The position numbers were made by a program, and so were the translations under genes. From Bacillota bacterium (lineage in GTDB: Bacteria; Bacillota; UBA994; UBA5500), in contig JBMNFA010000009.1 of NCBI GenBank assembly GCA_050949055.1, positions 257,600 to 321,599 on the forward strand: a stretch of DNA of 64,000 bases. Reading direction: 5' to 3'. A model generated the notes under the pieces. It had not been told where the DNA came from, did not search any database, and saw only the letters and a program-made list of their open reading frames with translations. Below are positions 7,397 through 46,746 of the stretch, one piece after another. The first letter of the stretch is position 1. Every line of letters begins with the position of its first letter.

Positions 7397-8344
7397 CTAG
7401 AGTGTCCGCAAGGCCTCGCTAATGATCCTCAGTTCGCGGTTAGTGCGAGCGCCGTAACCATCACCGGAACGGGCGAACCAGTCCAGCTCTAGGAGAGACC
7501 GGCAAATGCGGAGAATCTGCCAGGATTCACCCAGGCAGGCATAACGCCGTCTTGAGTCATCGGAAAGACGAGCCCAATATGCCTCACGCAGCGCTGCAAC
7601 ATCACCAAGCGGCTCATTCATCCGCAGGCTGGTGTCGACGAGCCCCACCAAGTCAAGCAATCCGGGACCGATGGCGGCTGTGGCCCAGTCTACCATTTGG
7701 ATCTGACCGCCAGTGATAAAGACGTTACCGCTATGGCTGTCACCGTGCAGCAAGGTGAGCGGATAACACTCCAACACCCCATGTATCGCGGACCAGTCCC
7801 AGAGCAGGCGTTCTTCAACATCGGCCAGCAACTCGTGCTCTACCCCGGTGAAGCAGCCGGAAGTCAGCTGCGCTCTTACCTGATCCCAAACTGTCCCAAC
7901 CAGACGACCTATCTCTGCTAGGACGTTTGGCAAGCCTGACGCCTGAGCAGCTAGACCCGAGCGGCCGCTCTGCTCATGGAAGTCAGCCAACGCCTCTGCT
8001 GCCGCTTGGTATTGCGCGGGATTCCTAGTCAGATAAAGTTGCTCACCTAGTGCCTGCTGAAGCAACAGCCAGGGCTCGCCGTCGATGACGCAGCAACTGG
8101 CAGGGGGTGCCGGAAAACCGGGCACCTGAGCTGCCAGCTGATAGACGGCTAATTCGCGAGCCAGCCCCTCCCGGGCCAGCTTGGCATAAAGTGTATGGTT
8201 GGCAGCGCCCGCTTTAGCCGTGATACGCAGAACACGGGAACTGGACCAGTCCCGGATTTCCTCTATGTCAGCGATCTCCACCGGCTCATGCAGCCAGGCA
8301 GCCACCGCTGCTTGCCACTCAACAATTAGGTCCATTTTGCTCAC
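7397..8344 (-). CDS. aminoglycoside/macrolide-phosphotransferase-family kinase (APH fold)
   Basis: Catalytic-loop motif LLHGDSHSGNVF (HGDxxxxN) and VDWATAAIGPGLLDL (D-x-x-G-D). Confidence 0.7.
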   Translation of the reverse strand: MSKMDLIVEWQAAVAAWLHEPVEIADIEEIRDWSSSRVLRITAKAGAANHTLYAKLAREGLARELAVYQLAAQVPGFPAPPASCCVIDGEPWLLLQQALGEQLYLTRNPAQYQAAAEALADFHEQSGRSGLAAQASGLPNVLAEIGRLVGTVWDQVRAQLTSGCFTGVEHELLADVEERLLWDWSAIHGVLECYPLTLLHGDSHSGNVFITGGQIQMVDWATAAIGPGLLDLVGLVDTSLRMNEPLGDVAALREAYWARLSDDSRRRYACLGESWQILRICRSLLELDWFARSGDGYGARTNRELRIISEALRTL

Positions 8345-11683: not shown

Positions 11684-12213
11684 AGGGTATCACTCCTTTT
11701 TGGGCGTTGTATGTGGGTGTACTGGGAACCGGACCAGAGTTTTGTCAGGGATAGAATACGACAGCGAGCGGGCAATTCCCTTGCGAAAGAAGACCTTTCG
11801 CCGCTCATACTCCAGTTGCCCCGGCCGATCCTGGCGGCATGGCGGAGCTGGATCATCGTCGGGTCGCGCTGGAGGTAGTTCGTGCCATAGCCTGCCACAT
11901 TCGCGCCGATACTTAGCAAGACCAACAGGGGCAGCTCGCGAATGCGGAAAAACCGAAAACACCCTCTCTGCTAATTCAGCAGGAATCTTGCTCTCAGATG
12001 ACTAATTAAGTAGCGACCACAAGTATCTCCGAGTCTTCCAGTCCTAAGGATGTCATCTATGGAAGGAAGGCCGTTAGGGTGGCAGGGGAAACCCGGTCGC
12101 CTCCCGTCTGGAAAGGAGTAATCTGCGGCCGCTGACGCATGGCTTAGCTTGCGTCCGTTTGCCTTGCGCCTCCTTTTCAGAGCATGTTTGCTACTTGGAA
12201 AGGAGGTTTTTGC

Positions 12214-12735
12214 TTGCGCGGGAAATCGCCTGCTCTGGCGCGGGGCGCAATTCTGCTTTGCCTGCTGCTTGCTGTCGGCATGGCGTTAGTCTACCCCCGC
12301 CCGGGGCTGCCCTTTGAGGTGGCAGAGGGCGAAAAGGTGCGGCGGCTGAAGCAACACGAAGTTGATGATATCGTGGGGGTCTACCTGGCAGAAAGAGATG
12401 CGGGCAGTCGCCTGGTGCAAATCGTCAGCAGCCAAGGGTTTAAAGGCCTGATGCAGTTTCAGGTGGATATAGACCTGAACACCGAACAAATCAGCCAAGT
12501 ACGGGTGTTGTCCCAACAGGAGACCGAGGATTATGGCGGCTACGTCACCGAAGGCTGGTTCTTGGACAGATTTGTCGGCAAGAACGTCGGCACCAAGCTA
12601 AGATTAGTCAAGTTAGCGGCCAGCTCGCCAGAAGAAGTGGTGGCCATCACCGGAGCAACCGTCACCAGCCGGGGGGCTCTGGATGCGGTAAACAAATGCC
12701 TAGATAACTATCAGAGACTAAAACGGGAGGATTGA
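12214..12735 (+). CDS. membrane-anchored FMN-binding-domain protein (ApbE-type flavinylation motif)
   Basis: Start TTG at 12214 after SD AAAGGAGG (the ORF track starts earlier at 12184). N-terminal TM segment, then an FMN_bind domain with VVAITGATVTSRGALDAV (S/T-G-A-T/S flavinylation motif). Confidence 0.7.
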   Translation: MRGKSPALARGAILLCLLLAVGMALVYPRPGLPFEVAEGEKVRRLKQHEVDDIVGVYLAERDAGSRLVQIVSSQGFKGLMQFQVDIDLNTEQISQVRVLSQQETEDYGGYVTEGWFLDRFVGKNVGTKLRLVKLAASSPEEVVAITGATVTSRGALDAVNKCLDNYQRLKRED

Positions 12736-13850
12736 TGATCGTGAAGTTGACCAGGAAAGCGTTAGTCTATCTGTTGCTGATGGGCCTATTGGGCCTGCTG
12801 CTTACGGGCTGCTCCAGCCCGGCACCGATCGATGAGCCCAACAACCAGGAAGATGAAGGCGTAATAGCGTTCATTGGCCTGCCGGATGGCGACAAGGAGA
12901 TCGCCGTGGCTGATCTGAAGGAAATGGAGCCATATGAGACTGAGGCGTTAGGGATCAGCTCTTCGGGCGAAGAGGCCACCCATGAGGTGAAGGGCGTGCT
13001 ATTGGCCGATCTGCTGACCGACTGGGGAGTGGAGCAGCAAAGTCTGCAGAGCATCCGTGCGGTGGCCAAGGATGGCTATGCCATGGAACTGCCGGGCGAG
13101 ATTCTGCAGGGCGAAGTGATCCTGGCCTATGAATACGATGGAGAGCCCCTGTTTGAAGAAAGCGGCCCCATCCGCTTGATCGTGCCCAATCAGCGCTCCA
13201 TGTATTGGCTGAGGGGACTGGCCAGCCTGGAGATCAGCGGCGGAGGCAGCGGAGCGACTGCAGAGACCGACGCAACTAGAATTGTGTTCATCGAGACAGC
13301 TATCGGTTTGGTGCCCCATTATGACTACACCTATTACGAGAGCAATGACCAAGCAGTGAAGGTGGACGAGCTGTTTGCCAAGCTGGGCATAGAGGCCACC
13401 GAAGGCACTGCAGCCCTGTGCGCAGCCGACGGCTTCGAGAAGAACGAGCAGGTAGCCACCCTGCGGCAAGGCTATCTCAAGTTCACTGGAGAAGCAGCAC
13501 CGCTGTTCCTCTCCCCCGACCTGCCCAAGGGCATGCATGTGAAGCAGATCCTGTGGATGGCCGTGGAAGATACGGCGCTGGTTTCCTTCGTGCATGCGGG
13601 CGAGGCGTGGGAACAGAAGACGGTGGGAGACATCTCCGGCGTGCCGCTGACCGCCATTTTAGAGCAGGTTGGGGTACAGTCGGATGTGGGCTATATTCTC
13701 AAGGCGAGTGATGACTACACGGTGGAAATCGAGGCGGCCGACGCGGCCGATGGGCTGGTCTACATCAAGGATGACGTTGTGCGGGTCAGCTTCAGCCAGC
13801 TGCCCAAGAGCAGCAGCGTCAAGGGCCTGCTGAGTATCGAAGCCAAGTAG
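12732..13850 (+). CDS. lipoprotein with two tandem sulfite-oxidase-fold (YedY/MsrP-like) domains lacking the Mo-ligand Cys
   Basis: Lipobox LLTGCSS. Domain 1: VKGVLLADLL...AVAKDGYAMELP...VILAYEYDGEPLFEESGPIRLIVPNQRSMYWLRGLASLEI, parallel to the SO-family pattern WTGVxLxDLL...LAYEMNGEPL...PLRLVVPGWYG..KWL..IEV. The CAGNRR cysteine position reads GISSSG. A second weaker copy lies at residues ~200-372. Confidence 0.6.
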   Translation: MMIVKLTRKALVYLLLMGLLGLLLTGCSSPAPIDEPNNQEDEGVIAFIGLPDGDKEIAVADLKEMEPYETEALGISSSGEEATHEVKGVLLADLLTDWGVEQQSLQSIRAVAKDGYAMELPGEILQGEVILAYEYDGEPLFEESGPIRLIVPNQRSMYWLRGLASLEISGGGSGATAETDATRIVFIETAIGLVPHYDYTYYESNDQAVKVDELFAKLGIEATEGTAALCAADGFEKNEQVATLRQGYLKFTGEAAPLFLSPDLPKGMHVKQILWMAVEDTALVSFVHAGEAWEQKTVGDISGVPLTAILEQVGVQSDVGYILKASDDYTVEIEAADAADGLVYIKDDVVRVSFSQLPKSSSVKGLLSIEAK

Positions 13851-14144
13851 CGGGCTGCAGCGAGCAGCTCCTATTCCTCAAAACCTCCTGCTATTCCCAG
13901 CGAGCTAGTAGCCTAGACCCTTCGTTGCACTCAGGGTGACAGTCGCTAGGCGACTGTCTACAGCGATTGTCATTCCGAGCGCAAGCGATGAATCTGGATC
14001 CTTCCGCGAACTTTATGCTCGCCTGTCGAAGTGCTCAAGATGACTCGGCAAAGCCTGGCAGGAGAGCCTTCACCCACGATAACCGTTCACAGGCCGGGAA
14101 CATTGTTTCCGCTTTAGAGCCAAATAAGGAGGAGACATCGAATA

Positions 14145-14645
14145 ATGAAGAAGAGTATATCCATTGCGATCTTGCTGTTGGTCACCGCGTTGGTCTTCAC
14201 CGCCTGCCAGCAGCCGGCGCAGCCGACTCCCAATCCCGATGAGCAGCAGCCCGGCGATGATGTGCTGCAGTGGGCAGTCACCTTTGTTAAAGCAGACGGC
14301 AGCACTGTGGAGCTGACCCACGCAGACGACCTGGAGCTGGTGGAAATCGAGGCTACCAAGGCACGCAAGGATGGCAGCGAAGAGAAGCAGCAATGGAAAG
14401 GAGTGCCGCTGCAGGCTGCCTTGGATTATCTGGAGTTGACGGAGTTTGAGGTAATCGCCGCTGAATCGGCTGACGGATATTCGGTAGATCTGGACAAGGA
14501 AATGGTAGCCGACGAAGGGACCATCATTGGACTGGAGCTGAACGGCGAGCCGTTGGCGGAAGACGCTGGCCCAGCCCAATTGGTGGTGGCCAGCCAGCGC
14601 TCTAACTTCTGGATTAAGCAGCTGAGCAAGATCACGCTCAAGTAG
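14145..14645 (+). CDS. lipoprotein with one sulfite-oxidase-fold domain lacking the Mo-ligand Cys (paralog)
   Basis: Lipobox VFTACQQ. WKGVPLQAALDYL...AAESADGYSVDL...IIGLELNGEPLAEDAGPAQLVVASQRSNFWIKQLSKITL. SD AAGGAGGAG upstream. Confidence 0.6.
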   Translation: MKKSISIAILLLVTALVFTACQQPAQPTPNPDEQQPGDDVLQWAVTFVKADGSTVELTHADDLELVEIEATKARKDGSEEKQQWKGVPLQAALDYLELTEFEVIAAESADGYSVDLDKEMVADEGTIIGLELNGEPLAEDAGPAQLVVASQRSNFWIKQLSKITLK

Positions 14646-14656
14646 CGTGGGCAAAG

Positions 14657-15241
14657 ATGATTAGCCGCGCGCTCAGGCGTTTTTCACTATTTCAGTTGGT
14701 CATTCTGGCTTTGGTGGCCGCCCTGGGGGTGGCCTCCAAGCCAGTGGTGGTTCCGTTGGCCCATATGATCACCGGCCCGCTGATGATTCCCGGCGGGGTG
14801 TTGGCCGGTGGCTTTTATATGCTGTGGATCGTGCTGGGGGCTGGCTTAATGGATCGCCGGGGTGGGGGGACGCTGATCAGCCTGGTACAGGCTATCCTGA
14901 TCGTCTCGCTGGGCCTCTATGGCACCCACGGCATCGTCAGCTTCCTGACCTATCTGGCACCGGGTCTGGCTGTCGACCTGGTGTTCTGGCCGGGCGGCCG
15001 TTGGCGGGGCAGTTCCCTCGCCTTCTTTACCGCAGGGCTGATGGCCAACATCTGCGGCAGTTATCTGGTTAACTTAGTGTTCTTCCGCCTGCCCTGGATT
15101 CCGTTGCTGCTCAGCTTAAGCACCGCTGCTTTATCTGGAGGGCTGGGTGGTCTGATTGCTTATGCCGTGGTGCACAAGCTGCGGCAGACGGGATTGATGG
15201 GTTTAGGCGTCAGCGAGAATGACAAGTCTTCAGTTGAATGA
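14657..15241 (+). CDS. polytopic membrane protein, probable ECF-transporter S (substrate-capture) component
   Basis: 194 aa with about 6 predicted TM helices. Size, topology and position next to the EcfA1-A2-T genes fit an S component. Confidence 0.5.
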   Translation: MISRALRRFSLFQLVILALVAALGVASKPVVVPLAHMITGPLMIPGGVLAGGFYMLWIVLGAGLMDRRGGGTLISLVQAILIVSLGLYGTHGIVSFLTYLAPGLAVDLVFWPGGRWRGSSLAFFTAGLMANICGSYLVNLVFFRLPWIPLLLSLSTAALSGGLGGLIAYAVVHKLRQTGLMGLGVSENDKSSVE

Positions 15242-15337
15242 AGCGAAGCAAATAGAACCGTCTCCGTTGTTTCGTAAATGGAGCGAGACAAAAAGAACCG
15301 TCCCTTTTGTTCCGGTGGAGAGGAGGGGTAAGTGGCG

Positions 15338-16828
15338 ATGAAGAGGATAATGGCAGTTGTGGCGCTGGTGGCCATGCTGGGCATCGGCTATTGGCTGGGG
15401 CAGAGCCATGGTATTCGGAAGGGTGCAAACCTGCCTAGTACGGCGCTGACGATTGTTGGCGATGTGGCGACGACGGTGTGGGTGGAATCGCTGCAAGGCA
15501 TGCAGCGGGAGCTGGAGACGGTCACTCTGGAGAAGGGATCTATCCAGGCGATTCCTCTGCAATCGTTAGTTCAGTTGGCGGAGCCGCTAGCGGATAAGAA
15601 CAAGGTGGTCCTACGGGGAGTGGACGGGGTGGCCGCCGAGCTGAGCCAACTGGAAGGCGCATACATCACCTATTCGGCGGAGCACGGCTGGCATGCGAAA
15701 AATCCCAACCATCCGGTGAGCAGCAACATCAAACACCTGCAGGATATCATTGTGGTGGCCGAGGGATTCTCCTGGGACCGGGGCATCAACATCATGACCT
15801 CGGAGGAGAACCTGGACAACTTCACCGTAGGACAGCTGCTCAACGACGAACTATCGCTGGTGCGGATAGTGGACGGCACGGCCACGGTGGAGCATGAAGG
15901 ACAACGGATCAGCTCGTCCGCAGTGGTCTTCAAGCGGATGCTGGGGCTCGGCCAGCTGCTGGAGCGAGTTGAGCTGCCGGAGCCAGAGAACCTGGCGGTG
16001 ATGGGTGAAAACGGCGCTTTCGTCATGGTGGACATGTCCATGGGCGGTTATCTGGAGGTGGGCGAGCACTCGGTGAACTATGTGGTCCTCGGCGACTACA
16101 GCCAGACGGTGAGGGACGTGCGAGCGATGATGTTCAACGCGCCGGAACTGTCCATCATGCAGACCTTTGATGACACGGTGCGGCGGTTGGAGAACGGCGA
16201 GAAGGTGATGATCGCCTTCTTGGACGGGCTTAGCTATCGGCAGTATCGCCGGGCCGTGGAGACTGGAATGGCACCCTATCTGCAATCGCTGCCGCCGGCA
16301 GAGAAGGCGCTGAGCATATACCAGCCGGTGACCAACGCCGGGTTTGCCGCCATGATTACCGGGCAGCCTCCGGGGGTGAATGGGGTGCACTCGCGCAGCC
16401 AACGGGGATTGAACGTGCCCAGCATCTTCGGACGGGCGGTGGAGCTGGGCCAGAAGGCCATCCTGGTGGAAGGCAATATTCAGATCCTGGACACCGAGGT
16501 GGATCCCCGCCTCAATCTGGACCAGAACCAGCAGCATGGCACCGATGACGAGGTGTTTGCCTCCGGGTTGCAGGCCATTGCTGAGCAGCCGGATCTGCTG
16601 ATGGTGCATTTCCACGGCATCGACGACTGCGGGCATCAGTTCGGACCGCTGGCAGAGCAGACGCTGCAGAAGATTCAGCAGGTGGATTCCTACCTGCAGG
16701 CGCTGGCCGCAGAGTGGGACGGCACCATCATCGTGGTGGCCGACCACGGCATGCACGTCGAGGGTGACGGCGGCAGCCACGGGCAGGCCCGGGCAGAGGA
16801 TTTTGTGGTGCCATACATCGTGAGATAA
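15338..16828 (+). CDS. membrane-anchored fusion: N-terminal SO-fold-like domain + type I phosphodiesterase/nucleotide pyrophosphatase (alkaline-phosphatase superfamily)
   Basis: ATG at 15338 after SD GGAGAGGAGGGG (the track starts at GTG 15332). N-terminal TM anchor. C-terminal MIAFLDGLSYRQY...HFHGIDDCGHQFGP...VVADHGMH (NPP/AlkP metal-site motifs). Confidence 0.6.
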   Translation: MKRIMAVVALVAMLGIGYWLGQSHGIRKGANLPSTALTIVGDVATTVWVESLQGMQRELETVTLEKGSIQAIPLQSLVQLAEPLADKNKVVLRGVDGVAAELSQLEGAYITYSAEHGWHAKNPNHPVSSNIKHLQDIIVVAEGFSWDRGINIMTSEENLDNFTVGQLLNDELSLVRIVDGTATVEHEGQRISSSAVVFKRMLGLGQLLERVELPEPENLAVMGENGAFVMVDMSMGGYLEVGEHSVNYVVLGDYSQTVRDVRAMMFNAPELSIMQTFDDTVRRLENGEKVMIAFLDGLSYRQYRRAVETGMAPYLQSLPPAEKALSIYQPVTNAGFAAMITGQPPGVNGVHSRSQRGLNVPSIFGRAVELGQKAILVEGNIQILDTEVDPRLNLDQNQQHGTDDEVFASGLQAIAEQPDLLMVHFHGIDDCGHQFGPLAEQTLQKIQQVDSYLQALAAEWDGTIIVVADHGMHVEGDGGSHGQARAEDFVVPYIVR

Positions 16829-16877
16829 TGCAAAAACGGGGACAGTCCCCATTTTTGCATTAGAGGAGGATGAGCGG

Positions 16878-17390
16878 ATGAAGAAGGTTCTAATCGGCGT
16901 GGTGGGTCTGTTGGTGGTGGTGATCGCCATCACTGGATATGTGAACTGGCGGCAGAGCGCCGCCCTGCGGGAAGCTCAGGCCAACGCTACGCTGGCAGTG
17001 ACTTGGGGCGATGACAACTCGGCCACTTTGAGCATGCAGCAGGTGCAGGCACTGCCGGCGGAAGAATTCGCGGTGGTGCAGCGGAGCAGCGACGCGCCGG
17101 ATAGCGATCAGGTGTTTAAGGGCGTGGCGCTAAAGGTGGCGCTCTCGGAACAAGGGGTGCCCTTGGACGATAGCAGCCTGGTGACGGTGAAAGCGGCAGA
17201 TGGTTATGCGGTTGCCCTCACCGGCAGCGAAGTGCTGCAGGATGAAAACGTCTATTTGGTCTACCAACGGGGAGGCGAGCCTCTGGGCACCAAGGCATCG
17301 GGTGGAACCGGCCCCTTCCAGCTGGTCATTCGCCAGGATACCTACGCCCAGCGTTGGTGCAAGTTTGTGAGCGAGATTCAGGTAAAATGA
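16878..17390 (+). CDS. membrane-anchored sulfite-oxidase-fold domain protein lacking the Mo-ligand Cys (paralog)
   Basis: N-terminal TM anchor. VFKGVALKVALSEQGV...KAADGYAVAL...YLVYQRGGEPLGTKASGGTGPFQLVIRQDTYAQRWCKFVSEIQV. Confidence 0.55.
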   Translation: MKKVLIGVVGLLVVVIAITGYVNWRQSAALREAQANATLAVTWGDDNSATLSMQQVQALPAEEFAVVQRSSDAPDSDQVFKGVALKVALSEQGVPLDDSSLVTVKAADGYAVALTGSEVLQDENVYLVYQRGGEPLGTKASGGTGPFQLVIRQDTYAQRWCKFVSEIQVK

Positions 17391-18073
17391 AGCCGCTAAT
17401 CGAGGTCAAGCAGTTATCCTTTAGCTACAGTAAGCAGTCCCCTCCCCTGTTTGAGCAGGTCGATCTGGAAATCTTCCCAGGGGAAGTGGTGGCGTTGCTG
17501 GGCAAGAGCGGGGCCGGCAAGAGCACCCTTTGTCATTGCCTGGCCGGCATCATTCCCCACCTGATCAAGGGGCAGATCAGCGGCCAGGTGCGGGTGGACG
17601 ATCTGCTCACCACGGACAGCAATCCTCCCACCCTGGCCCAAAGGGTGGGGGTTGTGTTTCAGGATCCGGATATGCAGCTGTTCATGCCCACGGTGGAGGA
17701 CGAACTGGCTTTTGGACTGGAGAATCTTTGCCTGCCGCCCCAGGAAATTGGGGAACGGATTGAGCAATGCCTACAGTTGGTGGGCATGAGCGCCAAGCGT
17801 CTGTGTCACCCCCATCAGCTCTCGGGGGGAGAGAAGCAGCGGGTGGCGCTGGCTGCTGTGTTGGCCATGAACCCCCAGGCGTTGATTTTGGACGAGGCCT
17901 TCTCCCAGCTGGACCGCGCCGGTCGCGGCGCCTTGAAGCAGATTATGCTACAGCTTAAGGACGCAGGCAAGGCGATAGTGATGGTGGAGCACGATTGGTC
18001 CAATCTGGACATCGCAGATCGGGTGCTGGTGCTGAAGGAGCGGCAACTGCAGCCTTTTCGGGGTGAACTATGA
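17387..18073 (+). CDS. ecfA: ECF-transporter ATPase component EcfA1 (ABC ATP-binding protein)
   Basis: ATG at 17387 overlaps the upstream stop (ATGA). Walker A GKSGAGKST, signature LSGGEKQRVALA, Walker B LILDEA. Confidence 0.85.
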   Translation: MKPLIEVKQLSFSYSKQSPPLFEQVDLEIFPGEVVALLGKSGAGKSTLCHCLAGIIPHLIKGQISGQVRVDDLLTTDSNPPTLAQRVGVVFQDPDMQLFMPTVEDELAFGLENLCLPPQEIGERIEQCLQLVGMSAKRLCHPHQLSGGEKQRVALAAVLAMNPQALILDEAFSQLDRAGRGALKQIMLQLKDAGKAIVMVEHDWSNLDIADRVLVLKERQLQPFRGEL

Positions 18074-18753
18074 GCGAGTGCAAATCGGTGATTGTTGCTC
18101 GGGACGTTAGTTTCAGCTATCCCAAGGGCCCCCCGCTGTTCGAACGGCTCAACTTGACGCTGTATCAGGGCGAGTTTACGGCCATCGTGGGCGAAAACGG
18201 CAGCGGCAAGACGACACTGGGCAAGTTGCTTTGTGGCATCCTGCGCCCCGCCGGGGGCAGCGTGAGCATTTTGGGGGAGGAGAGCCATAACCTCAGCCTG
18301 GGGAGCATCGGGCAGAAGATCGGCTATCTGTTTCAGAACCCGGATCAGCAGCTGTTTGCGCTGACGGTGCGGGAGGAGCTCTGCTGGCCGCTGCAGCTGC
18401 GGGGCGAAGATGCGGAGTCGGTGCGGCGGAAGGTGGGGCAGGTGCTGGGAAGGTTCCAGCTTGCGGGCTTGGAGGACAAGCTGCCCTTCCGCTTGAGCCG
18501 TGGGGAGAAACAACGGTTGGTGCTGGCGGCGATTATGCTGCAGCGGCCCAGCTACCTGATTTTGGACGAGCCCACCAGCAGCCTGGATCAGGAGCGGCGG
18601 GCAGGATTGTCCCAAGTGCTGCAGGAGTTGCAGGCAGAGGGCATCGGCATGGCTGTGATCACCCATGATTCAGATTTTCTGCAGCAGCATGCACAGCGGG
18701 TGATCCAACTGCGGGAAGGGAGGGTGGTGGCCGATGAACGGGTCTCGCCTTGA
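18070..18753 (+). CDS. ecfA: ECF-transporter ATPase component EcfA2
   Basis: GENGSGKTTL, LSRGEKQRLVLA, LILDEPTSSLD. Start overlaps the EcfA1 stop. Confidence 0.85.
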   Translation: MSECKSVIVARDVSFSYPKGPPLFERLNLTLYQGEFTAIVGENGSGKTTLGKLLCGILRPAGGSVSILGEESHNLSLGSIGQKIGYLFQNPDQQLFALTVREELCWPLQLRGEDAESVRRKVGQVLGRFQLAGLEDKLPFRLSRGEKQRLVLAAIMLQRPSYLILDEPTSSLDQERRAGLSQVLQELQAEGIGMAVITHDSDFLQQHAQRVIQLREGRVVADERVSP

Positions 18754-19465
18754 CCCCAGAACCAAGCTGGTGATCGTGCTGTCCATCTCTTCCCTGGGTG
18801 TGTTCATCGGCGACCCCTGGGTGCTGCTGGGTGTAGCCGGCGTATCCTGGCTGCTGGCCACCCTGCTGGGCGGCAACCCTGGGGGCGCCGCCCGGCGCTG
18901 GCGCCGGATGCTGTGGCTGTTTCTGCCCATCGTCTTGATGCAGAGTGTGTTTGCGCCTGGGGGCATGCGGTTATTAGGCATCGGCTCGCTGACCCTGCTC
19001 AGCAGCGGCGGACTGCTGAAGGGGTTGGCCATGCTCTGCCGGCTGCTGATTGTGGTGGTGGCCGCCAGCATCATGACCACGTCCAACTCGCGCGATGTGG
19101 TGCAGGGACTGATCCAGTGGAAGTTGCCTTATGAGATCGCCTTTATGGTCTCGCTGGCGGCGCGCTTCTTGCCCATGCTGGGCGAGGAAGTGCGTGACTC
19201 GCTGACGGCGCTGCAGCTAAGAGGCATCGAGCCAGAGGCTCTGCCGCTACGGAAACGCCTGCAGCTCTATTCGTACCTGCTGATGCCGGTGATGGTCAGC
19301 ACGGTGATTCGGGCGGAGCAGCTTTCATTGGCCATGGAGATGCGTGCCTTTCGCGCCTTCCCCACCCGTACCAGCCACCGCAGCTTGCAGCTTAGGGGAG
19401 CGGATTATGCCTGGATGCTAGGCAGCGCGGCGGTGACGGTGGCGGCCTTGGTTGCCCTGCGCTAG
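18734..19465 (+). CDS. ecfT: ECF-transporter transmembrane T component (EcfT/CbiQ family)
   Basis: 243-aa polytopic protein with conserved arginine-containing coupling helices (ARFLPML...RGIE). Overlaps the ecfA2 end. Confidence 0.75.
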   Translation: MNGSRLDPRTKLVIVLSISSLGVFIGDPWVLLGVAGVSWLLATLLGGNPGGAARRWRRMLWLFLPIVLMQSVFAPGGMRLLGIGSLTLLSSGGLLKGLAMLCRLLIVVVAASIMTTSNSRDVVQGLIQWKLPYEIAFMVSLAARFLPMLGEEVRDSLTALQLRGIEPEALPLRKRLQLYSYLLMPVMVSTVIRAEQLSLAMEMRAFRAFPTRTSHRSLQLRGADYAWMLGSAAVTVAALVALR

Positions 19466-19565
19466 AGCGGGTGTGAGAAAATAATCCGTAAGCGCTGGCG
19501 CTCAGGGTGTCCGCATCGTGTCATTCCGAGCGCAGCGAGGAATCTATACGGAGGTGAACAACAAG

Positions 19566-20321
19566 ATGCGTATCTTTTCGGTTTCCGGCATCAGCAAGTC
19601 CGGAAAGACGACTACCATAGAAGAGATCATCAAAGAACTACGGCGGCGGCGATACACCGTGGGCAGCATCAAGGACATCCACTTCGAGGCCTTTGCCATC
19701 GATGGCCCGTCCACCAACACCGCCCGCCACCGCCGGGCGGGATCAGAGCTGGTCACCGCCTGGGGGCTGGCCGAGACAGATGTTCTCTTCCCCACCCGGC
19801 TGCCCCTGGAGCAACTGCTCCGCTTCTATAGCCAGGACTTTGTGATCATCGAAGGTTTTGCCGAAGGGCCCATCCCCAAAATCGTCACGGGGCATTCGCT
19901 GGAACGGGTGGATGAGCGGTTGGACGACCTGACCTTCGCTATTTCCGGACGCATTGCCGCCGGTATGGATGAGTACCGGGGGCTGCCGGCGCTGAGCGCA
20001 CTCACCCAGGTGGCCGAACTCTGCGACCTGATTGAAGAAAAAGTGTTTGAACGGCTACCCCACTTTCCTGGAGAGTGTTGCGCCGCCTGCGGGCAGGATT
20101 GTGTGCAGCTGGCCGCTCGCATCCTCAAGGGGGAAGCCCAGCGCAGTGACTGCCGCCTGGTGGCCGAGCGGCAGAAGGTGGAGCTGTGCATCGACGGCGA
20201 GCCGATCAAGATGGTGCCCTTTGTGCAGAGCATCCTCTATAACGCGGTGCGGGGCGTGGTGACGGAGTTGGACGGTTACCAGCCGGGCAAGAAAGTGGAG
20301 ATCAAGATTGGCTCCATTTGA
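19566..20321 (+). CDS. mobB: MobB-like P-loop protein (molybdopterin-guanine dinucleotide biosynthesis protein B) with a Cys-rich C-terminal extension
   Basis: ATG 19566 after SD GGAGG (the track starts earlier). MRIFSVSGISKSGKTTTIEEII...VGSIKDIHFEAFAIDGPSTNTARHRRAGS parallels the MobB P-loop and GxDSxRHRxAG block. The C-terminal about 100 aa carry GECCAACGQDC. Confidence 0.7.
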   Translation: MRIFSVSGISKSGKTTTIEEIIKELRRRRYTVGSIKDIHFEAFAIDGPSTNTARHRRAGSELVTAWGLAETDVLFPTRLPLEQLLRFYSQDFVIIEGFAEGPIPKIVTGHSLERVDERLDDLTFAISGRIAAGMDEYRGLPALSALTQVAELCDLIEEKVFERLPHFPGECCAACGQDCVQLAARILKGEAQRSDCRLVAERQKVELCIDGEPIKMVPFVQSILYNAVRGVVTELDGYQPGKKVEIKIGSI

Positions 20322-21018
20322 AGACCTGCTGGACCCGGCTGATTGGGAGCAACTGGAGGTCTGCCGCTATCAAGTGGTGCGGCAGTTCCGCAGCAAGAGA
20401 AACCAGGTCTGTCTGGTACGGGTAAGCCGAACAGACGGGACCGCAGGGGAGCTGGTGGTGAAGCGGGCGGGAGAGCAGGTTGTGGATTTGAGTCGCGAGG
20501 CAAGTCTGCAGGCGCTGCTTCATCAACGGGGGCTAGCGGTTCCCCGGGTGCTGCTGGCAAAACCCCGCTGCCTGGTGATGCAATACATCACCGGAGAGAC
20601 CCTGGTAGACTATCTGGAGCAGGTGGAACGGGAATACCCCCTCTGCCCAGAAACGCTGCAGAGCGCAGTACGCCCGCTAGCTCAGCAACTAGCCGCCTGG
20701 TTGCAGCTGTTTTATCGGATCACCGCGGACAGCTTTGGCCGCGCCATGATCAGGGGCGACGTCAACCTGCGCAACTTCCTCGTCCGCGATGATAAAATCT
20801 TTGGAGTGGATTTTGAGGATGCCCGGCCGGGTGACATGGCCGAGGATGCAGGCCGCATCCTGGCCTTTGCCCTCACCTACGACCCGGCTTTCACCCCCTG
20901 GAAGCGAGCGATCGTAGAGGAGCTGTCCCTGGCTTTTCGGGAGGTGCTGCAGCTGGCGGCAAAGCCCCTGCAGCGCGCGATGGAGGCTGAACTGCAGGCA
21001 ATTCGCGAACGAAGATAG
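20308..21018 (+). CDS. protein-kinase-like / phosphotransferase-fold protein
   Basis: GDVNLRNFLVRDDKIFGVDFEDA (catalytic-loop-like D-x-N...N and DFE/DFG-like). Start overlaps the mobB end. Confidence 0.5.
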   Translation: MAPFEDLLDPADWEQLEVCRYQVVRQFRSKRNQVCLVRVSRTDGTAGELVVKRAGEQVVDLSREASLQALLHQRGLAVPRVLLAKPRCLVMQYITGETLVDYLEQVEREYPLCPETLQSAVRPLAQQLAAWLQLFYRITADSFGRAMIRGDVNLRNFLVRDDKIFGVDFEDARPGDMAEDAGRILAFALTYDPAFTPWKRAIVEELSLAFREVLQLAAKPLQRAMEAELQAIRERR

Positions 21019-21091: not shown

Positions 21092-22876
21092 TTAAGGGAT
21101 GGAGACCAGGATGAACATGTTATAGTCAATACCGTCGTCCTGGTTGCTGCCATGGATGGCGTGGATGCTCTGGAAGATGATGCGCAGCTGAGCGTCTCTG
21201 CCGGATGCATCCAGGGTCATCTGCTCAGGGCCCAGGAGTCTCTCGGATAAGTCCCCAGCGGCCATCAGGTTGGTAACGAAGTCATTCAGGCCGGTGGCCA
21301 CCAATTCTGTCCCCGCACTATCCTGTATGGACACCCGCGCTTCTTGTGGCGACTGGCGCTCCACTACCAGTCGGTAGGTGCTGCCCCGCACCGTGAAGCT
21401 TTGGGTGATGGTCCGTGTTTGCTGATAGCGATAGGCCGTGGCCTCCAGCAAGACGTCGTAGCCGCTGATCGGCAGCGGGCCTTGTCGATTGAGGTTGGCA
21501 TAGAAGCGAGTGATATTCTCCGCCATGTAGCTATAGGTAGGCTCAAAACCCAAGGCCTGCTCCATGTCCCGATAGGGCTCGAAGTCCTGGGGCAGCCAAG
21601 ATACTTGCGGCAGGTAGCCGCGGTGATTCAGGTAGTTGAGGATATTGGTGGTCTCCCGGCGCACGTCCAGGTCCACATCACTTTGGGGGTGCAGCTCTCC
21701 GTCCACCAGGATTCCCGCCGCTTGCAGCATCCCTTCCAGCCGCGACACCTGGCTGAGGCGCGAGACAGTGAAAGCGTCCACCGGAGGAACGATGGAGGCG
21801 ATGGCCAGGCTGGCGGCCAAAACGGCGATGATGCCGTTCCTGGTCACCGGGCGCAATGAGAGCGCGATGCCGACGATCAAGGAGAAGATGCCAAACAGAG
21901 TCAGGTAGTAGCGGGACTCGGTGATGCCATAGGCCCGCAAACGAATGGATACCGAAACCAGCTGCATGATCACCACCGGAATCAGCACCTTGGGAAAGAG
22001 GTGCTGATAGAGCACGGCCGAGCGGTTGTTCAGGCGGCTGGCCAGAACATAGACCAGCAGGCCAGCGGCGGCGTAACCCAGGATCATCGGCCCCAACTGG
22101 CCGATAGGCCATTCCCTGGTGACGCCGATCTTGACGAAATAGGCCAGCAGCACCAGGGTGTAGGCACTGATCAGCGGGATAGCGATCTGGGCCACCAGAA
22201 TCTCCAAGATACGAGGATACTGGCTGGACTCCTGGGCGGCAATCCGGTCGGCCATTTGGTCCGAGTTGAACCGGGGCAGCAGCGACAGGTAGTGGATGGT
22301 GGCGAACAGCATCCAGACGATGGCCAGCATGTAGCCAAAGGTGTCGCTGTCCACGTCGAACAACAGGATATCGATGGCCACAATCAGCGCCGCTAGTCCG
22401 GCGGAGAGCACCCCGGCGTAGAGGATGGACGTCATCGCTGACTTGAAATGGACCAAAGCCACGCTGTTGAAATCGAACCTGCCCCCAAGCGACGGCAGCC
22501 AGATGAACGCACAGAACATGGCAAAGACGGCCACTGCTGTTCTGGCACCGACCTCGTAGTCTATCGCCGGTGCCCCGGCAATGATCAGGTAGTAGCCCAG
22601 AGTGAACAACACAGACACAATGTAGACGGCGGAGCGGCGCCCGGCCAAGCTGGGAAAGCGCTCGCAGGCAAATTGCGCAGTGATTCCCAGGAAGGCTGCA
22701 AACAGGCAGACGAACATCAGCTTCTGGATCAGCAGGCTGGGGGTACTATGCAAGGAGATCATGTAACAGGTCAAAGCTGTGCTGCCAACCAGGCTAAGCA
22801 CGGTCAGCGGGAACCGCCAGATCGCCTGGCCCAACCCCCGCAGGGTGCGGGCAACTGTCTCAATCAACCTTCCCAT
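21092..22876 (-). CDS. DUF4153-like polytopic membrane protein (594 aa)
   Basis: ORF track. At least 10 hydrophobic helices then a soluble C-terminal domain. Family assignment from memory. Confidence 0.5.
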   Translation of the reverse strand: MGRLIETVARTLRGLGQAIWRFPLTVLSLVGSTALTCYMISLHSTPSLLIQKLMFVCLFAAFLGITAQFACERFPSLAGRRSAVYIVSVLFTLGYYLIIAGAPAIDYEVGARTAVAVFAMFCAFIWLPSLGGRFDFNSVALVHFKSAMTSILYAGVLSAGLAALIVAIDILLFDVDSDTFGYMLAIVWMLFATIHYLSLLPRFNSDQMADRIAAQESSQYPRILEILVAQIAIPLISAYTLVLLAYFVKIGVTREWPIGQLGPMILGYAAAGLLVYVLASRLNNRSAVLYQHLFPKVLIPVVIMQLVSVSIRLRAYGITESRYYLTLFGIFSLIVGIALSLRPVTRNGIIAVLAASLAIASIVPPVDAFTVSRLSQVSRLEGMLQAAGILVDGELHPQSDVDLDVRRETTNILNYLNHRGYLPQVSWLPQDFEPYRDMEQALGFEPTYSYMAENITRFYANLNRQGPLPISGYDVLLEATAYRYQQTRTITQSFTVRGSTYRLVVERQSPQEARVSIQDSAGTELVATGLNDFVTNLMAAGDLSERLLGPEQMTLDASGRDAQLRIIFQSIHAIHGSNQDDGIDYNMFILVSIP

Positions 22877-23188
22877 ATCTTCTGTCCCCTCTCTTTCTTC
22901 TGGGCGGAGCGGAAAACGAGAGCCAACTATATCTAGTTAGTGAATTGTGCCAGGGCGCTCGGTCATTTATGACGGCGACCTGTGCTGAGAGAATATATAC
23001 CCATTTAATTAGACGTAATGCACAATCAAAAGATGCGCCTGGGGGAAAATACCTGGCCGCGAGGACTGCGCGGCGGTACTGGGCGGACGACACCGCCGGG
23101 TTGCTTGCGAAAGCGTAGACGCTTTGGTTACAGGGCTGGCCGGTAAGTGATAAAATGGCGTTACAATGTGATCAGTGGAGGTGTGGCC

Positions 23189-24373
23189 ATGAAAAGGCTT
23201 GTTCGGGCCATCTTACTTATTCTAGCCGTTGGTCTGCTCTGGTCGCAGCCAGCCGTGGCACATGCTGCCCCCCGCCTGGCACCTCAAATTCGCCCGGAAA
23301 TGGAGTTGCTGGCCGGGGTTTTGACTCAGACAACCTGGATCGACCGGCATGGTCCCCAATCGGAGGGGAACGAGTACTATCGCGCTTTGCGAGACTTCTT
23401 CTCCGATTATCAATCGCATGAGGCAATCAAGCTGGCGCAGGAATTGACCAACCTGGGCTATACCTATGATGCGCCTATTGCCTTTATCTGTCACTTGGGC
23501 CCGTTGCCGGACTTGGAGCTGCAACACGAGTACTCGGAATACATTGTGGGCAGGGCGCACGGCAGGGAACGGCTGGAGCGGTTCCGGTCGGCCCTAAAGG
23601 ACCTGGCAGCGGAATCGAATTTCATGGAATTCTATCGGTCGTGGCAGCCCCGCTACCAGCAGTGGGTGGAGGCAGCCAACATGGACGGGGAGATGGTGGT
23701 CAACTGGTTGGAGCAATTCTTTGGCCAGGAAGCCTCAGAATTCCAGATCATTCTGGCGCCAGCCATGTTCCCGGGTGGTGGATATGGTGCCACCGTAACC
23801 ACCGCCGAGGGCGAGAAGATATCCTTTCAGGTGGTACGCGAACGGGGAGAAAGCACCGCTGAGCCGAGCTTTCCCAGCGGATTGGGTTTGGAATACCTGT
23901 CTCTGCATGAGTGGGGCCACTCGTTCGTCAATCCGGCTTTGGAGGCCCGTTCCGACCTGGTGGGCCGGCTGGTCAGGTTCTTCCGACCGGTATCCCGAGA
24001 AATGAAAGCCCAAGCCTATGGCAGCGTACATGTATTCATGAACGAGCAGGTGCTGCGGGCGGTGACCACACTGGCCGCAGAGGAGCTATATGGTCAGGAG
24101 AGATACGAGCAGTTCCTGGCCAATGAAATGGACGCTTCCTTCTACTTGACTGAGGGCATCGTGAACATTTTGCGGGACTACCAGAACAATCGTGACACTT
24201 ATCCCAACTTCGACGCCTTCGTCCCGGTGCTGCTGGAGCGGATAGGAGAATTGGCTCCCGGTCCCTGGTGGAAAGGGCTTGGCCTCTACTGGCAAGTGGC
24301 AGCCATCGTTGTCGGCATCATCCTGTTGCGCTGGTCAATGGCCAGACGTGGTCAGCAACGACACCGATCCTAA
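23189..24373 (+). CDS. secreted putative Zn-metallopeptidase-like protein (HEWGH motif; DUF4932-like) with a C-terminal TM anchor
   Basis: ATG 23189 after SD GGAGG. Signal peptide MKRLVRAILLILAVGLLWSQPAVAHA, HExxH (LHEWGHSF), C-terminal hydrophobic anchor. Confidence 0.5.
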   Translation: MKRLVRAILLILAVGLLWSQPAVAHAAPRLAPQIRPEMELLAGVLTQTTWIDRHGPQSEGNEYYRALRDFFSDYQSHEAIKLAQELTNLGYTYDAPIAFICHLGPLPDLELQHEYSEYIVGRAHGRERLERFRSALKDLAAESNFMEFYRSWQPRYQQWVEAANMDGEMVVNWLEQFFGQEASEFQIILAPAMFPGGGYGATVTTAEGEKISFQVVRERGESTAEPSFPSGLGLEYLSLHEWGHSFVNPALEARSDLVGRLVRFFRPVSREMKAQAYGSVHVFMNEQVLRAVTTLAAEELYGQERYEQFLANEMDASFYLTEGIVNILRDYQNNRDTYPNFDAFVPVLLERIGELAPGPWWKGLGLYWQVAAIVVGIILLRWSMARRGQQRHRS

Positions 24374-39434: not shown

Positions 39435-39527
39435 TCGATATAAATGGCGGAGAGGGCGGGATTCGAACCCGCGATGCAACTTTCGCCGCATACTCGATTT
39501 CCAGTCGAGCGCCTTCGACCAGCTCAG
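39435..39527 (-). tRNA. tRNA-Ser (anticodon GGA), CCA encoded
   Basis: Folded by hand: 7-bp acceptor GGAGAGG/CCUCUCC, anticodon loop CUGGAAA, long variable arm, T-loop GGUUCGAAUCC, 3' GCCA. Confidence 0.85.
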
Positions 39528-45932: not shown

Positions 45933-45933
45933 G

Positions 45934-46738: not shown

Positions 46739-46746
46739 ATGAGAAA

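What the first reader, a model, noticed from the sequence alone, without database searches (positions are those of the whole stretch)
15338..16828. Exported type I phosphodiesterase/nucleotide pyrophosphatase fused to a copy of the degenerate SO-fold domain
The 498-aa protein has an N-terminal TM anchor and a divergent copy of the cluster's repeated beta-domain. Its C-terminal alkaline-phosphatase-superfamily NPP catalytic domain carries the metal-site motifs DGLSYRQY, HFHGIDDCGH and ADHGMH. An NPP active site tethered to a ligand-capture domain outside the cell suggests processing of a dinucleotide cofactor (MGD to Mo-MPT + GMP, or FAD to FMN + AMP) before transport. This architecture is unusual.
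Basis: inference. Interest (0 to 1): 0.6.

Follow-up and report, generated by a model that had tools for sequence, protein, structure and literature searches.

The report
Surface phosphoesterase of Moco-regulated transporter
This gene encodes a cell-surface, metal-dependent phosphate-ester-cleaving enzyme that belongs to a transporter operon switched off by the molybdenum/tungsten cofactor, so it may mark an undescribed bacterial route for scavenging that cofactor or a related compound.

Summary
ORF 15332/15338..16828 (+) is a real gene (100% match to a Bacillota MAG protein). It has an N-terminal membrane anchor, a degenerate sulfite-oxidase-fold (SUOX/PruR-like) domain, and a second beta domain of unclear origin. 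Its C-terminal 222-aa alkaline-phosphatase-superfamily core keeps all seven catalytic residues invariant.

- The operon starts with a P3-less Moco/Tuco riboswitch (12015..12134, 73 bits).
- The gene sits in a conserved cluster: ECF S component, AP protein, SUOX-like protein, EcfA/A'/T, MobB and a small kinase. The cluster recurs in about 50 loci of Clostridia, Tissierellia, Halanaerobiales and Chloroflexota, and 24 of 41 assessable loci carry the riboswitch.
- In at least four proteins the ECF S component is fused to the AP module.

One diderm locus adds a TonB-dependent receptor. The predicted switch is OFF with ligand.

Best reading: this is the ecto-processing subunit of a cofactor-repressed ECF importer. 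It cleaves a phosphate ester or pyrophosphate on a pterin-type (molybdopterin/tungstopterin-related) ligand before uptake. The substrate is inferred, not shown. The "nucleotide pyrophosphatase" label is only superfamily-level, and the FAD alternative has no support. I found no paper describing this system.

The parts
12015..12134 (+). Moco/Tuco riboswitch aptamer, P3-less class
   Evidence: Rfam RF01055, 73 bits against a gathering score of 36, E 1e-15. The alignment shows the P3 stem deleted.
12135..12213 (+). Expression platform. An RBS sequestor (12167-12181 pairs with 12193-12209) competes with an anti-sequestor that pairs with the aptamer 3' strand. Predicted translational OFF switch.
   Evidence: Sequence. 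RNAfold gives -36.9 and -33.4 kcal/mol for the two alternatives, z-scores -3.2 and -2.8. The switching logic is inferred.
12184..12735 (+). Exported FMN_bind (RnfG/NqrC-like) protein with a TGAT flavinylation motif. The likely true start is TTG at 12214.
   Evidence: Pfam PF04205, E 2.6e-13. NCBIfam RnfG-like. An SD precedes 12214.
12732..13850 (+). Lipoprotein with three SUOX-like modules: one canonical (d1) and two degenerate (d2, d3).
   Evidence: Pfam PF00174, E 1e-14, on residues 81-169. Lipobox LTGC. Module alignment.
14145..14645 (+). Lipoprotein with one SUOX/PruR-like domain
   Evidence: Pfam PF00174, E 1e-9. Profile A4 hits SorA at 3.5e-10 and PruR 7kom at 1.7e-6.
14657..15241 (+). 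ECF transporter S component (PF09819 family)
   Evidence: Pfam PF09819, 35.3 bits against a cut-off of 25.2. Fused to the AP module in P0092, P0163, P0240 and P0255.
15332..16828 (+). The finding: a membrane-anchored SUOX-like + beta domain + AP-superfamily phosphoesterase (498 aa from GTG; 496 aa from ATG at 15338).
15335..15406 (+). N-terminal signal-anchor helix (residues 2-25)
   Evidence: Hydropathy. AF2 helix. Lipobox in orthologues.
15446..15760 (+). N1: degenerate SUOX-fold domain (residues 39-143). Invariant G43, D44, D98, G99, W120; no conserved Cys.
   Evidence: hhalign. Foldseek to SorA, YedY and PruR. Invariant residues.
15785..16135 (+). N2: second beta-rich domain (residues 152-268) of unresolved affinity
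   Evidence: AF2 secondary structure, pLDDT >90. hhalign is only marginal.
16160..16825 (+). Minimal alkaline-phosphatase-superfamily catalytic core (residues 277-498). Key residues: D298 (16223-16225), T334 nucleophile (16331-16333), D431/H435 (16622-16636), D471/H472 (16742-16747), H483 (16778-16780).
   Evidence: Invariant columns. HMMER alignments to NPP and PhnA. Foldseek to 2gsn, 7n1s, 1ei6, ENPP1/3 and PorX, E about 4e-8.
16878..17390 (+). TM-anchored SUOX/PruR-like protein. It lies immediately downstream of the AP gene and overlaps it in other loci.
   Evidence: Pfam PF00174, E 3.4e-7. Adjacency.
17354..19465 (+). Dedicated ECF energizing module: EcfA (17354-18073), EcfA' (18070-18753), EcfT (18734-19465).
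   Evidence: NCBIfam ECF_ATPase_1 at 2.3e-63 and 3.5e-51. CbiQ PF02361 at 1.6e-27.
19518..20321 (+). MobB / Fe-S domain protein (cytosolic Moco-handling GTPase family)
   Evidence: Pfam MobB, 2.1e-18. NCBIfam PRK14494 type, 2.1e-40.
20308..21018 (+). Small protein-kinase-like (APH/RIO/Bud32-type) phosphotransferase, the last gene of the conserved operon
   Evidence: Pfam APH, 7.2e-12. NCBIfam Bud32-like. Conserved in most Bacillota-type loci.

Best explanation
The protein is an extracytoplasmic, membrane-tethered, two-metal phosphoesterase of the alkaline-phosphatase superfamily. It works as a dedicated accessory subunit of an ECF-type importer.

The whole operon is translationally repressed when the cell has enough tungsten/molybdenum cofactor (P3-less Moco/Tuco riboswitch).

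Proposed mechanism:
1. Exported SUOX/PruR-like domains capture a scarce pterin-type, cofactor-related ligand. These are lipoprotein, TM-anchored, S-layer-anchored or fused to the enzyme. Candidate ligands are molybdopterin/tungstopterin, a dinucleotide form such as MGD/MCD, or a phosphorylated derivative.
2. The AP domain sits next to, and sometimes fused to, the S component. Using its Thr334 nucleophile and bimetal site, it removes a phosphate or a nucleotide-pyrophosphate group.
3. The S component and EcfAA'T import the product.
4. In the cytosol the small kinase and MobB return it to the cofactor pathway.

Shown: gene, outward topology, fold, intact catalytic site, conserved operon, fusions, riboswitch.
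Inferred: transport direction, ligand identity, the bond cleaved, and the roles of the kinase and MobB.
For: - Catalytic residues are invariant and align to NPP and PhnA ligands. The fold matches NPP, PhnA and PorX (model pLDDT 92.6).
- Outward orientation: single anchor. Lipoboxes occur in P0004, P0008, P0014, P0063, P0065, P0068, P0073, P0084 and P0117. In the P0092 fusion an extra TM helix (residues 196-214) follows the S component.
- The order S-comp / AP / SUOX-like / EcfA / A' / T (+MobB, +kinase) is conserved in L001-L035. An AP + SUOX-like + ECF core is conserved in Chloroflexota L036-L053.
- The AP gene overlaps the downstream SUOX-like gene by 4-14 nt in L001, L003 and L004.
- Four S-component::AP fusions of different lengths exist.
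- A riboswitch lies upstream in the window and in 24 of 41 assessable loci. It sits directly before the AP gene in L017, L025, L028, L031 and L033.
- P3 is absent, which is the proposed Tuco class (PMC2408646, PMC11725836). Sequestor/anti-sequestor folds predict OFF with ligand, which is the logic of an acquisition system.
- In L009 a TonB-dependent-receptor-like gene lies between the riboswitch and the operon. This points to import of a scarce, complex ligand.
- The stand-alone SUOX-like domains match PruR, a periplasmic protein with a degenerate SUOX fold that binds pterins without Mo (PMC11194511). They keep the DGY Tyr and a C-terminal Trp.
- The S component is of the small-organic-ligand type (PF09819, 194 aa), not CbiM/NikM-like.
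Against: - No substrate was tested, and nothing in the sequence identifies the bond cleaved.
- The NPP nucleotide-slot and oxyanion positions are not conserved (F91 -> N335, N111 -> R355). This weakens a classical nucleotide-pyrophosphatase reading.
- N1 has lost the Tyr and Trp that hold the pterin in PruR, and it is missing from the short orthologues.
- The FMN_bind / NapH-like electron-transfer partners are not explained by simple salvage.
- MobB and the kinase are absent from the Chloroflexota loci.
- 17 of 41 assessable loci show no riboswitch at E<=0.01.
- No bacterial Moco or molybdopterin importer is known, so there is no precedent.
- ECF systems can also export cofactors (PMC9973259).
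Confidence: 0.45

Rival explanations
1. The system acquires tungsten/molybdenum in a non-pterin form, such as an oxyanion, a thio-/poly-metalate or a metal-chelate ('tungstophore'). The AP domain would bind or release the metal species, since AP active sites bind tungstate/molybdate/vanadate as phosphate mimics (general knowledge). The flavoprotein would supply reducing power for release.
For: - Moco/Tuco riboswitches classically control molybdate/tungstate transporters (PMC2408646, PMC11725836).
- A tupABC-like operon and a Peripla_BP_2/FecCD ABC transporter, each with its own riboswitch, lie next to the ECF operon in C. formicaceticum.
- FMN_bind and NapH-like partners fit reductive release. 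Flavinylated systems are linked to iron reduction and assimilation (PMC8238504).
- The TonB-receptor neighbour also fits a chelate.
Against: - The S component is of the organic-ligand type, with none of the N-terminal metal-binding features of CbiM/NikM.
- The capture domains resemble pterin-binding PruR and the Moco domains of SUOX enzymes, not Mop/TOBE or TupA/ModA.
- A nucleophile Thr and a full catalytic set conserved across phyla argue for catalysis on a phosphoester.
- Dedicated tungstate transporters are already present beside the operon.
Confidence: 0.2
2. The ECF module exports the cofactor. The operon would then assemble an extracytosolic Mo/W redox enzyme from Sec-exported SUOX-like apoproteins, by analogy with EetB/FmnA FAD export and ApbE flavinylation. 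The AP domain would act as the outside cofactor-processing or cofactor-transferring enzyme, for example MGD -> protein-bound MPT + GMP.
For: - An ECF exporter precedent exists (PMC9973259).
- FMN_bind-SUOX-like fusions and a NapH-like Fer4_5/FMN_bind protein occur in L004 (sequence). This is the layout of an extracytosolic redox enzyme with its electron supply.
- MobB could hand the cofactor to the transporter.
- Moco RNAs also precede cofactor-using enzymes (PMC2408646). An AOR gene lies behind a second riboswitch in L012.
Against: - The SUOX-like domains are truncated to about 130 aa and have no conserved Cys (or other obvious Mo ligand), as in PruR (PMC11194511).
- The predicted switch is OFF with ligand, which suits acquisition rather than a cofactor-consuming enzyme.
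- The TonB-dependent receptor in L009 implies inward traffic.
- The S component belongs to PF09819, not the EetB family PF07456.
Confidence: 0.1
3. This is a generic ecto-nucleotide pyrophosphatase/phosphatase for phosphate or nucleotide scavenging, or for FAD -> FMN processing for flavin uptake. It would be only loosely associated with its neighbours.
For: - Pfam and NCBI label it only as a phosphodiesterase/alkaline phosphatase family protein.
- A flavoprotein is encoded in the operon.
Against: - Synteny is conserved over about 50 loci in several phyla.
- The gene overlaps its neighbour, and gene fusions with the S component exist.
- Control is by a Moco riboswitch, not an FMN riboswitch or a Pho system.
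Confidence: 0.05
4. The AP domain is a catalytically dead scaffold or ligand-binding lid for the S component.
For: - The domain is unusually small (222 aa) and is fused to binding-type domains.
Against: - All seven catalytic positions are invariant at 32-42% pairwise identity. Additional invariant residues H426, H475, N350 and D490 line the same motifs.
Confidence: 0.03

Closest known systems
Nucleotide pyrophosphatase/phosphodiesterases (Xanthomonas NPP 2GSN/7N1S; ENPP1/3/5)
   Same: - Alkaline-phosphatase-superfamily alpha/beta core.
- Thr nucleophile and the D / D..H / DH / H bimetal ligands.
- Extracellular location.
- Best Foldseek and HMMER matches among solved structures.
   Different: - Only 16-20% identity over about 225 aligned columns.
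- The domain is 222 aa against about 380 aa, with an 11-residue DH-to-His spacing as in the iPGM/phosphopentomutase-type cores (spacing recalled from memory).
- The position aligned to NPP F91 is Asn, and the position aligned to N111 is Arg.
- It has SUOX-like N-terminal domains, ECF operon membership and riboswitch control.
Phosphonoacetate hydrolase PhnA (1EI6, 3SZY)
   Same: - Shares the 'TN' nucleophile motif and both halves of the metal site.
- Best single-sequence PDB hit, E 9.5e-5.
   Different: - PhnA is cytosolic, about 400 aa, and cleaves a C-P bond.
- The NCBIfam PhnA model scores 26 bits against a cut-off of 408.
PglZ-type AP domains (PorX of the type IX secretion system; BREX PglZ)
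   Same: - A minimal AP core used as a module fused to other domains.
- 23 of 30 family members hit Pfam PglZ (best E 2e-7).
- Foldseek to PorX gives E about 5e-7.
   Different: - PglZ/PorX are cytosolic signalling or defence proteins.
- The window protein itself does not reach the PglZ threshold.
PruR periplasmic pterin-binding proteins (7KOU, 7KOM, 7KP2, 7RKB)
   Same: - Exported, roughly 130-150-aa degenerate SUOX fold without the Mo-ligating Cys.
- Both N1 and the neighbouring stand-alone domains match it structurally or by profile.
   Different: - PruR signals to a c-di-GMP enzyme in Proteobacteria (PMC11194511). Here the domains are in Bacillota/Chloroflexota transporter operons.
- N1 lacks the Tyr/Trp pterin sandwich, while the neighbouring domains keep DGY and Trp.
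ECF cofactor transporters with extracytosolic partners (RibU/EcfAA'T flavin import; EetB/FmnA FAD export to ApbE in Listeria)
   Same: - An ECF module linked to extracytosolic cofactor handling and to FMN_bind lipoproteins (PMC9973259).
   Different: - Different S-component family (PF09819 against PF07456 for EetB; RibU's family was not checked here).
- Different regulator (Moco riboswitch).
- Neither an AP-type enzyme nor a SUOX-like domain is described in those systems.

Membership tests
Alkaline phosphatase superfamily | Alpha/beta core fold shared by AP, NPP, PhnA and iPGM | tested here: met
   AF2 model pLDDT 92.6. Foldseek prob 1.0, E about 4e-8, to 2gsn, 7n1s, 1ei6, ENPP1/3 and PorX.
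Alkaline phosphatase superfamily | Bimetal ligand set (Asp; Asp..His; Asp-His; His) plus a Ser/Thr nucleophile | tested here: met
   D298, T334, D431, H435, D471, H472 and H483 are invariant in 30 sequences. All but H483 are aligned by HMMER to the NPP and PhnA motifs. H483 is assigned from its invariance and position.
Alkaline phosphatase superfamily | Metal-dependent phosphoryl/phosphodiester transfer activity | not testable with these tools
   Needs an enzyme assay of the ectodomain.
NPP / type I phosphodiesterase family (PF01663) | Pfam model above the gathering score over the domain | tested here: inconclusive
   55.4 bits against a cut-off of 23, but only profile positions 131-222 of 342 are matched. 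Metalloenzyme (30.8 bits) also matches, and PglZ matches in 23 of 30 relatives.
NPP / type I phosphodiesterase family (PF01663) | Substrate-contact residues next to the nucleophile (F91) and the oxyanion Asn (N111) of Xac NPP. Residue roles are recalled from the NPP literature. | tested here: not met
   The HMMER alignment to 2gsn places N335 opposite F91 and R355 opposite N111.
SUOX fold / PruR-like pterin-binding domain (for N1) | SUOX Moco-domain fold | tested here: met
   The N-region model (pLDDT 93.8) hits SorA, nitrate reductase, YedY and PruR at prob 1.0. TM-score normalised to the target is about 0.55 for PruR. hhalign to operon modules gives 72-95%.
SUOX fold / PruR-like pterin-binding domain (for N1) | Pfam PF00174 match | tested here: not met
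   No hit for the window protein. Only 2 of 30 relatives hit, best E 0.031.
SUOX enzymes | Conserved Mo-coordinating cysteine | tested here: not met
   No invariant Cys in N1 or in the stand-alone domains.
PruR-like pterin binders | Aromatic Tyr/Trp sandwich for the pterin ring (PMC11194511) | tested here: not met
   N1 has DG[L/V/F] and 'SSNIK' where the operon's canonical modules have DGY and Trp. The residue correspondence to PruR was not aligned directly.
ECF transporter accessory component | Conserved adjacency, coupling or fusion with the S component and the EcfAA'T genes | tested here: met
   Synteny in L001-L053. Overlapping genes. Fusions P0092, P0163, P0240 and P0255.
Moco/Tuco riboswitch regulon | RF01055 aptamer upstream on the same strand | tested here: met
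   Window, 73 bits. 24 of 41 assessable related loci.

The most novel reading that the evidence does not exclude
The operon is the first bacterial salvage importer for the molybdenum/tungsten cofactor or its pterin moiety. It would work as an Isd-like relay of PruR-type SUOX domains that hands a molybdopterin/tungstopterin derivative to an ECF S component. This protein would be the surface enzyme that strips the nucleotide or phosphate before uptake, and a cytosolic kinase and MobB would re-activate the imported product.
Probability: 0.3. Interest if true: 0.85.

Novelty: new variant of a known kind. Interest (0 to 1): 0.68.

Why it matters
How the labile Mo/W cofactor moves between cells is poorly understood. 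Nematodes take it from dietary bacteria (PMC7849362, PMC9793310), but I know of no bacterial importer and my literature searches found none.

This operon is conserved and repressed by the cofactor riboswitch. It combines an ECF transporter, pterin-binding-type domains and a surface phosphoesterase, which makes it a concrete, testable candidate for such a route in anaerobes that rely on tungsten enzymes.

Even if the ligand turns out to be something else, the family defines three things:
- a new accessory-subunit type for ECF transporters,
- a new output of the Moco/Tuco riboswitch,
- a second biological context, after PruR, for cofactor-less SUOX domains.

Tried and rejected
- N2 (residues 152-268) could not be assigned. 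hhalign to the operon modules is at or near noise (E 0.03-0.05; best 27%, E 7e-4), and the Foldseek hits beyond the SUOX proteins were low-probability.
- The S component has no detectable relative among solved structures, so its ligand could not be inferred.
- The small kinase matches only generic Bud32/RIO/APH models.
- Literature searches found nothing describing this operon. Queries covered Moco riboswitch + ECF, molybdopterin salvage, and tungsten + ECF. The flavinylation surveys PMC8238504 and PMC11334425 were also checked. Subscription-only papers were not searchable.
- I rejected the FAD/FMN reading (no FMN riboswitch).
- I rejected the inactive-scaffold reading (catalytic residues invariant).
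- I rejected the chance-neighbour reading (synteny and fusions).
- I could not test whether genomes carrying the operon lack moaA/moaC.
Full report
**1. The observation**

The ORF listing gives one long ORF at 15332..16828 on the + strand, 498 aa from a GTG start. An in-frame ATG at 15338 gives 496 aa. That version is identical to P0001, an 'alkaline phosphatase family protein' of a Bacillota MAG. A strong SD (GGAGAGGAGG, 15318-15327) precedes both starts.

The gene is real and conserved. The word-index search found 174 homologues. The exhaustive HMM search found 321 cluster-50 representatives at E<=1e-30 among 1.84 billion. This is a small family, annotated nowhere more precisely than 'alkaline phosphatase family'.

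**2. Anatomy**

An AlphaFold model built on 30 homologues is confident (pLDDT 92.6, pTM 0.85). It shows:
- a helix at residues 2-25,
- a low-confidence linker,
- a beta/alpha domain at 39-143 (N1),
- a beta domain at 152-268 (N2),
- an alpha/beta domain at 277-498.

Hydropathy finds only the N-terminal segment.

*The C-terminal domain.* It matches Pfam Phosphodiest (55 bits, but only residues 395-475) and Metalloenzyme. Across the family, 23 of 30 members also hit PglZ. Foldseek against PDB puts Xanthomonas NPP, PhnA, ENPP1/3/6/7 and PorX on top (E about 4e-8, about 225 columns, 16-20% identity).

In the 30-sequence alignment (32-42% identity to the query), D298, T334, D431, H435, D471, H472 and H483 are invariant. 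HMMER aligns DGLSY, PVTNAG, HGIDDCGH and ADHGM to the corresponding NPP and PhnA motifs.

The domain is a minimal core of 222 aa. The residues opposite NPP F91 and N111 are N335 and R355. Family-specific invariants (N350, H426, H475, D490) and a conserved acidic loop (consensus LNxDxNxNGxTDDEV) are present. It belongs to the AP superfamily, but calling it a nucleotide pyrophosphatase goes beyond the evidence.

*N1.* Profile-profile comparison with the operon's SUOX-like modules gives:

| Module | Probability | E-value |
|---|---|---|
| Pfam-detectable d1 | 72% | 3e-5 |
| Degenerate d2 of the 372-aa lipoprotein | 94% | 1.5e-7 |
| Degenerate d3 of the 372-aa lipoprotein | 95% | 1.8e-8 |
| AP domain (control) | 1.5% | 0.03 |

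A separate model of residues 36-275 (pLDDT 93.8) hits sulfite dehydrogenase SorA, nitrate reductase, YedY and the PruR pterin-binding proteins. For PruR the probability is 1.0, the target-normalised TM-score is about 0.55 and the rmsd is 3.4-3.8 A.

So the 'degenerate SO-fold copy' is confirmed. N1 has no conserved Cys. It carries DG[L/V/F] and SSNIK where the canonical modules have DGY and Trp. N2 remains unassigned.

**3. Topology**

Many orthologues replace the anchor with a lipobox:
- LLGCS, MMGCS, FSGC, LTGCQ, LSGCQ and MTGCV,
- IPSCG and LAGCG.

In the fusion protein P0092 the S component is followed by a basic stretch and a strong extra TM helix (196-214) before the ectodomain. With the usual in/in termini of S components (general knowledge), this places the enzyme outside.

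**4. Context: the decisive new evidence**

*Riboswitch.* Rfam finds a Moco/Tuco riboswitch at 12015..12134 (73 bits, E 1e-15), just upstream of the first gene of the operon. It lacks the P3 stem. That is the class proposed to sense the tungsten cofactor (PMC2408646), and it is also the class described in Eubacterium limosum (PMC11725836).

Downstream, CCUCCUUUUCAGAGC can pair with either of two partners:
- the aptamer's 3' strand,
- the SD of the first gene (probable start TTG at 12214).

This is a sequestor/anti-sequestor arrangement that predicts translation OFF when ligand is bound.

*Operon (12184..21018).* The genes, in order:
1. exported FMN_bind protein,
2. three-module SUOX-like lipoprotein,
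3. one-module SUOX-like lipoprotein,
4. ECF S component (PF09819),
5. the AP protein,
6. TM-anchored SUOX-like protein,
7. EcfA, EcfA' and EcfT,
8. MobB/Fe-S protein,
9. small protein-kinase-like protein.

*Conservation.* The same order recurs in Clostridium formicaceticum, Tepidimicrobium, Sedimentibacter, Geosporobacter and Halanaerobiales. It also recurs in MAGs labelled Actinomycetota, Sumerlaeota and UBP11. A reduced AP + SUOX-like + ECF core occurs in Chloroflexota. The AP gene overlaps the downstream SUOX-like gene by 4-14 nt in three loci.

*Fusions.* Four proteins fuse the S component to the AP module: P0092, P0163, P0240 and P0255.

*Riboswitch association.* A covariance model built from nine hits finds the riboswitch upstream on the same strand in 24 of 41 assessable loci. 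In five of them it lies directly before the AP gene.

*Neighbouring genes.*
- In L009 the riboswitch is followed by a lipoprotein gene and a TonB-dependent-receptor-like gene (Plug domain) before the SUOX-like, S-component and AP genes.
- In L012 a second riboswitch precedes a tungsten-type aldehyde:ferredoxin oxidoreductase with MoaD- and MoeB-like genes.
- In C. formicaceticum, separate riboswitches control a tupABC-like operon and a FecCD-type ABC transporter next door.

**5. Mechanism**

What is shown:
- an outward-facing, catalytically equipped AP-superfamily enzyme,
- a tight genetic coupling, sometimes a physical fusion, to an ECF S component and to SUOX/PruR-like domains,
- control by the Mo/W-cofactor riboswitch.

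What is inferred:
- *Import.* This follows from the OFF-switch logic, the TonB receptor and the general behaviour of ECF systems.
- *A pterin-type ligand.* The capture domains match PruR, a degenerate SUOX fold that binds pterins in the periplasm (PMC11194511). The S component is of the organic-ligand type.
- *Removal of a phosphate or nucleotide group before uptake, with re-activation inside by the kinase and MobB.*

The layout of surface esterase, then ECF import, then cytosolic kinase parallels vitamin salvage in general (general knowledge). I put this composite at 0.45.

Rivals and their weights:

| Rival | Weight |
|---|---|
| W/Mo uptake in a non-pterin form | 0.2 |
| Cofactor export to assemble an extracytosolic SUOX-like enzyme, by analogy with EetB/FmnA (PMC9973259) | 0.1 |
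| Generic NPP or FAD processing | 0.05 |
| Inactive scaffold | 0.03 |

The FMN_bind and NapH-like partners remain the least explained feature. They might keep a redox-labile ligand reduced, or they might point to the rival models.

**6. Comparison and novelty**

The enzyme works like an ecto-NPP or phosphatase, but it fails NPP-specific residue tests. It is best filed only at superfamily level. N1 is a SUOX-fold relative that fails the Cys and aromatic-sandwich tests.

I found no paper describing a Moco-riboswitch-controlled ECF system or this AP family. The two flavinylation surveys do not mention it either.

I rate it a new variant of a known kind of enzyme, embedded in what may be a new kind of cofactor-acquisition system.

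Noticed in passing
window 12015-12213 (+): A P3-less Moco/Tuco riboswitch with a sequestor/anti-sequestor expression platform. The FMN_bind gene probably starts at TTG 12214, behind the SD GGAAAGGAGG, rather than at ATG 12184.
   Followed up: yes
window 16830-16860 (+): A GC-cored hairpin (GCAAAAACGGGGAC...GTCCCCATTTTTGC) fills the 49-nt gap between the AP gene and the next SUOX-like gene. In other loci these two genes overlap. It may be an intra-operon attenuator or an mRNA-stability element.
   Followed up: no
window 15251-15314 (+): Two imperfect 24-nt direct repeats (AGAACCGTC[T/C]CC..TTGTT[T/C]CG) lie in the intergenic region between the S-component and AP genes. They are unexplained.
   Followed up: no
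L009 5425-9368: In a UBP11 MAG the riboswitch is followed by a lipoprotein gene and a TonB-dependent-receptor-like gene (Plug domain) before the SUOX-like, S-component and AP genes. This outer-membrane leg of the same system resembles B12 uptake.
   Followed up: partly
L001 (Clostridium formicaceticum) 7940-8062, 18083-18204(-), 18422-18539: Three Moco riboswitches lie within 11 kb. They control the ECF/AP operon, a tupABC-like operon, and a Peripla_BP_2/FecCD ABC transporter followed by DUF4213/DUF364. The last type is called an iron transporter in E. limosum (PMC11725836), but it might carry a W/Mo-related ligand.
   Followed up: partly
L012 16886-19801: A second riboswitch downstream of the operon precedes an aldehyde:ferredoxin oxidoreductase (tungsten enzyme family) with MoaD-like and ThiF/MoeB-like genes.
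   Followed up: partly
L004 1178-8906: The Tepidimicrobium-type operon is extended upstream. It adds an SLH-anchored SUOX-like protein, a 970-aa SLH protein, an FMN_bind protein with SUOX-like modules (multi-module by inspection of its sequence), and a NapH-like Fer4_5 + FMN_bind membrane protein. Together these form an extracytosolic electron-transfer chain attached to the system.
   Followed up: partly
window 12732-13850 (+): The 372-aa lipoprotein holds one canonical and two degenerate SUOX-like modules. The AP protein's N1 domain is closest to the degenerate ones (hhalign 94-95%).
   Followed up: yes
window 21092-24373: A 594-aa DUF4153 membrane protein (- strand) and a DUF4932 protein with a signal peptide and a C-terminal anchor flank the operon. 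They were not seen in the related loci I read.
   Followed up: no
window 2188-5469 (-): A 1093-aa protein with DUF499 and DUF7744 domains. As I recall, DUF499 is the BrxC/PglY-type ATPase of phage-defence systems. Its neighbours were not examined.
   Followed up: no
window 45845-46999 (-) and 39448-39537 (-): A cluster of five tRNA genes plus one isolated tRNA gene, next to seryl-tRNA synthetase (47070-48443).
   Followed up: no
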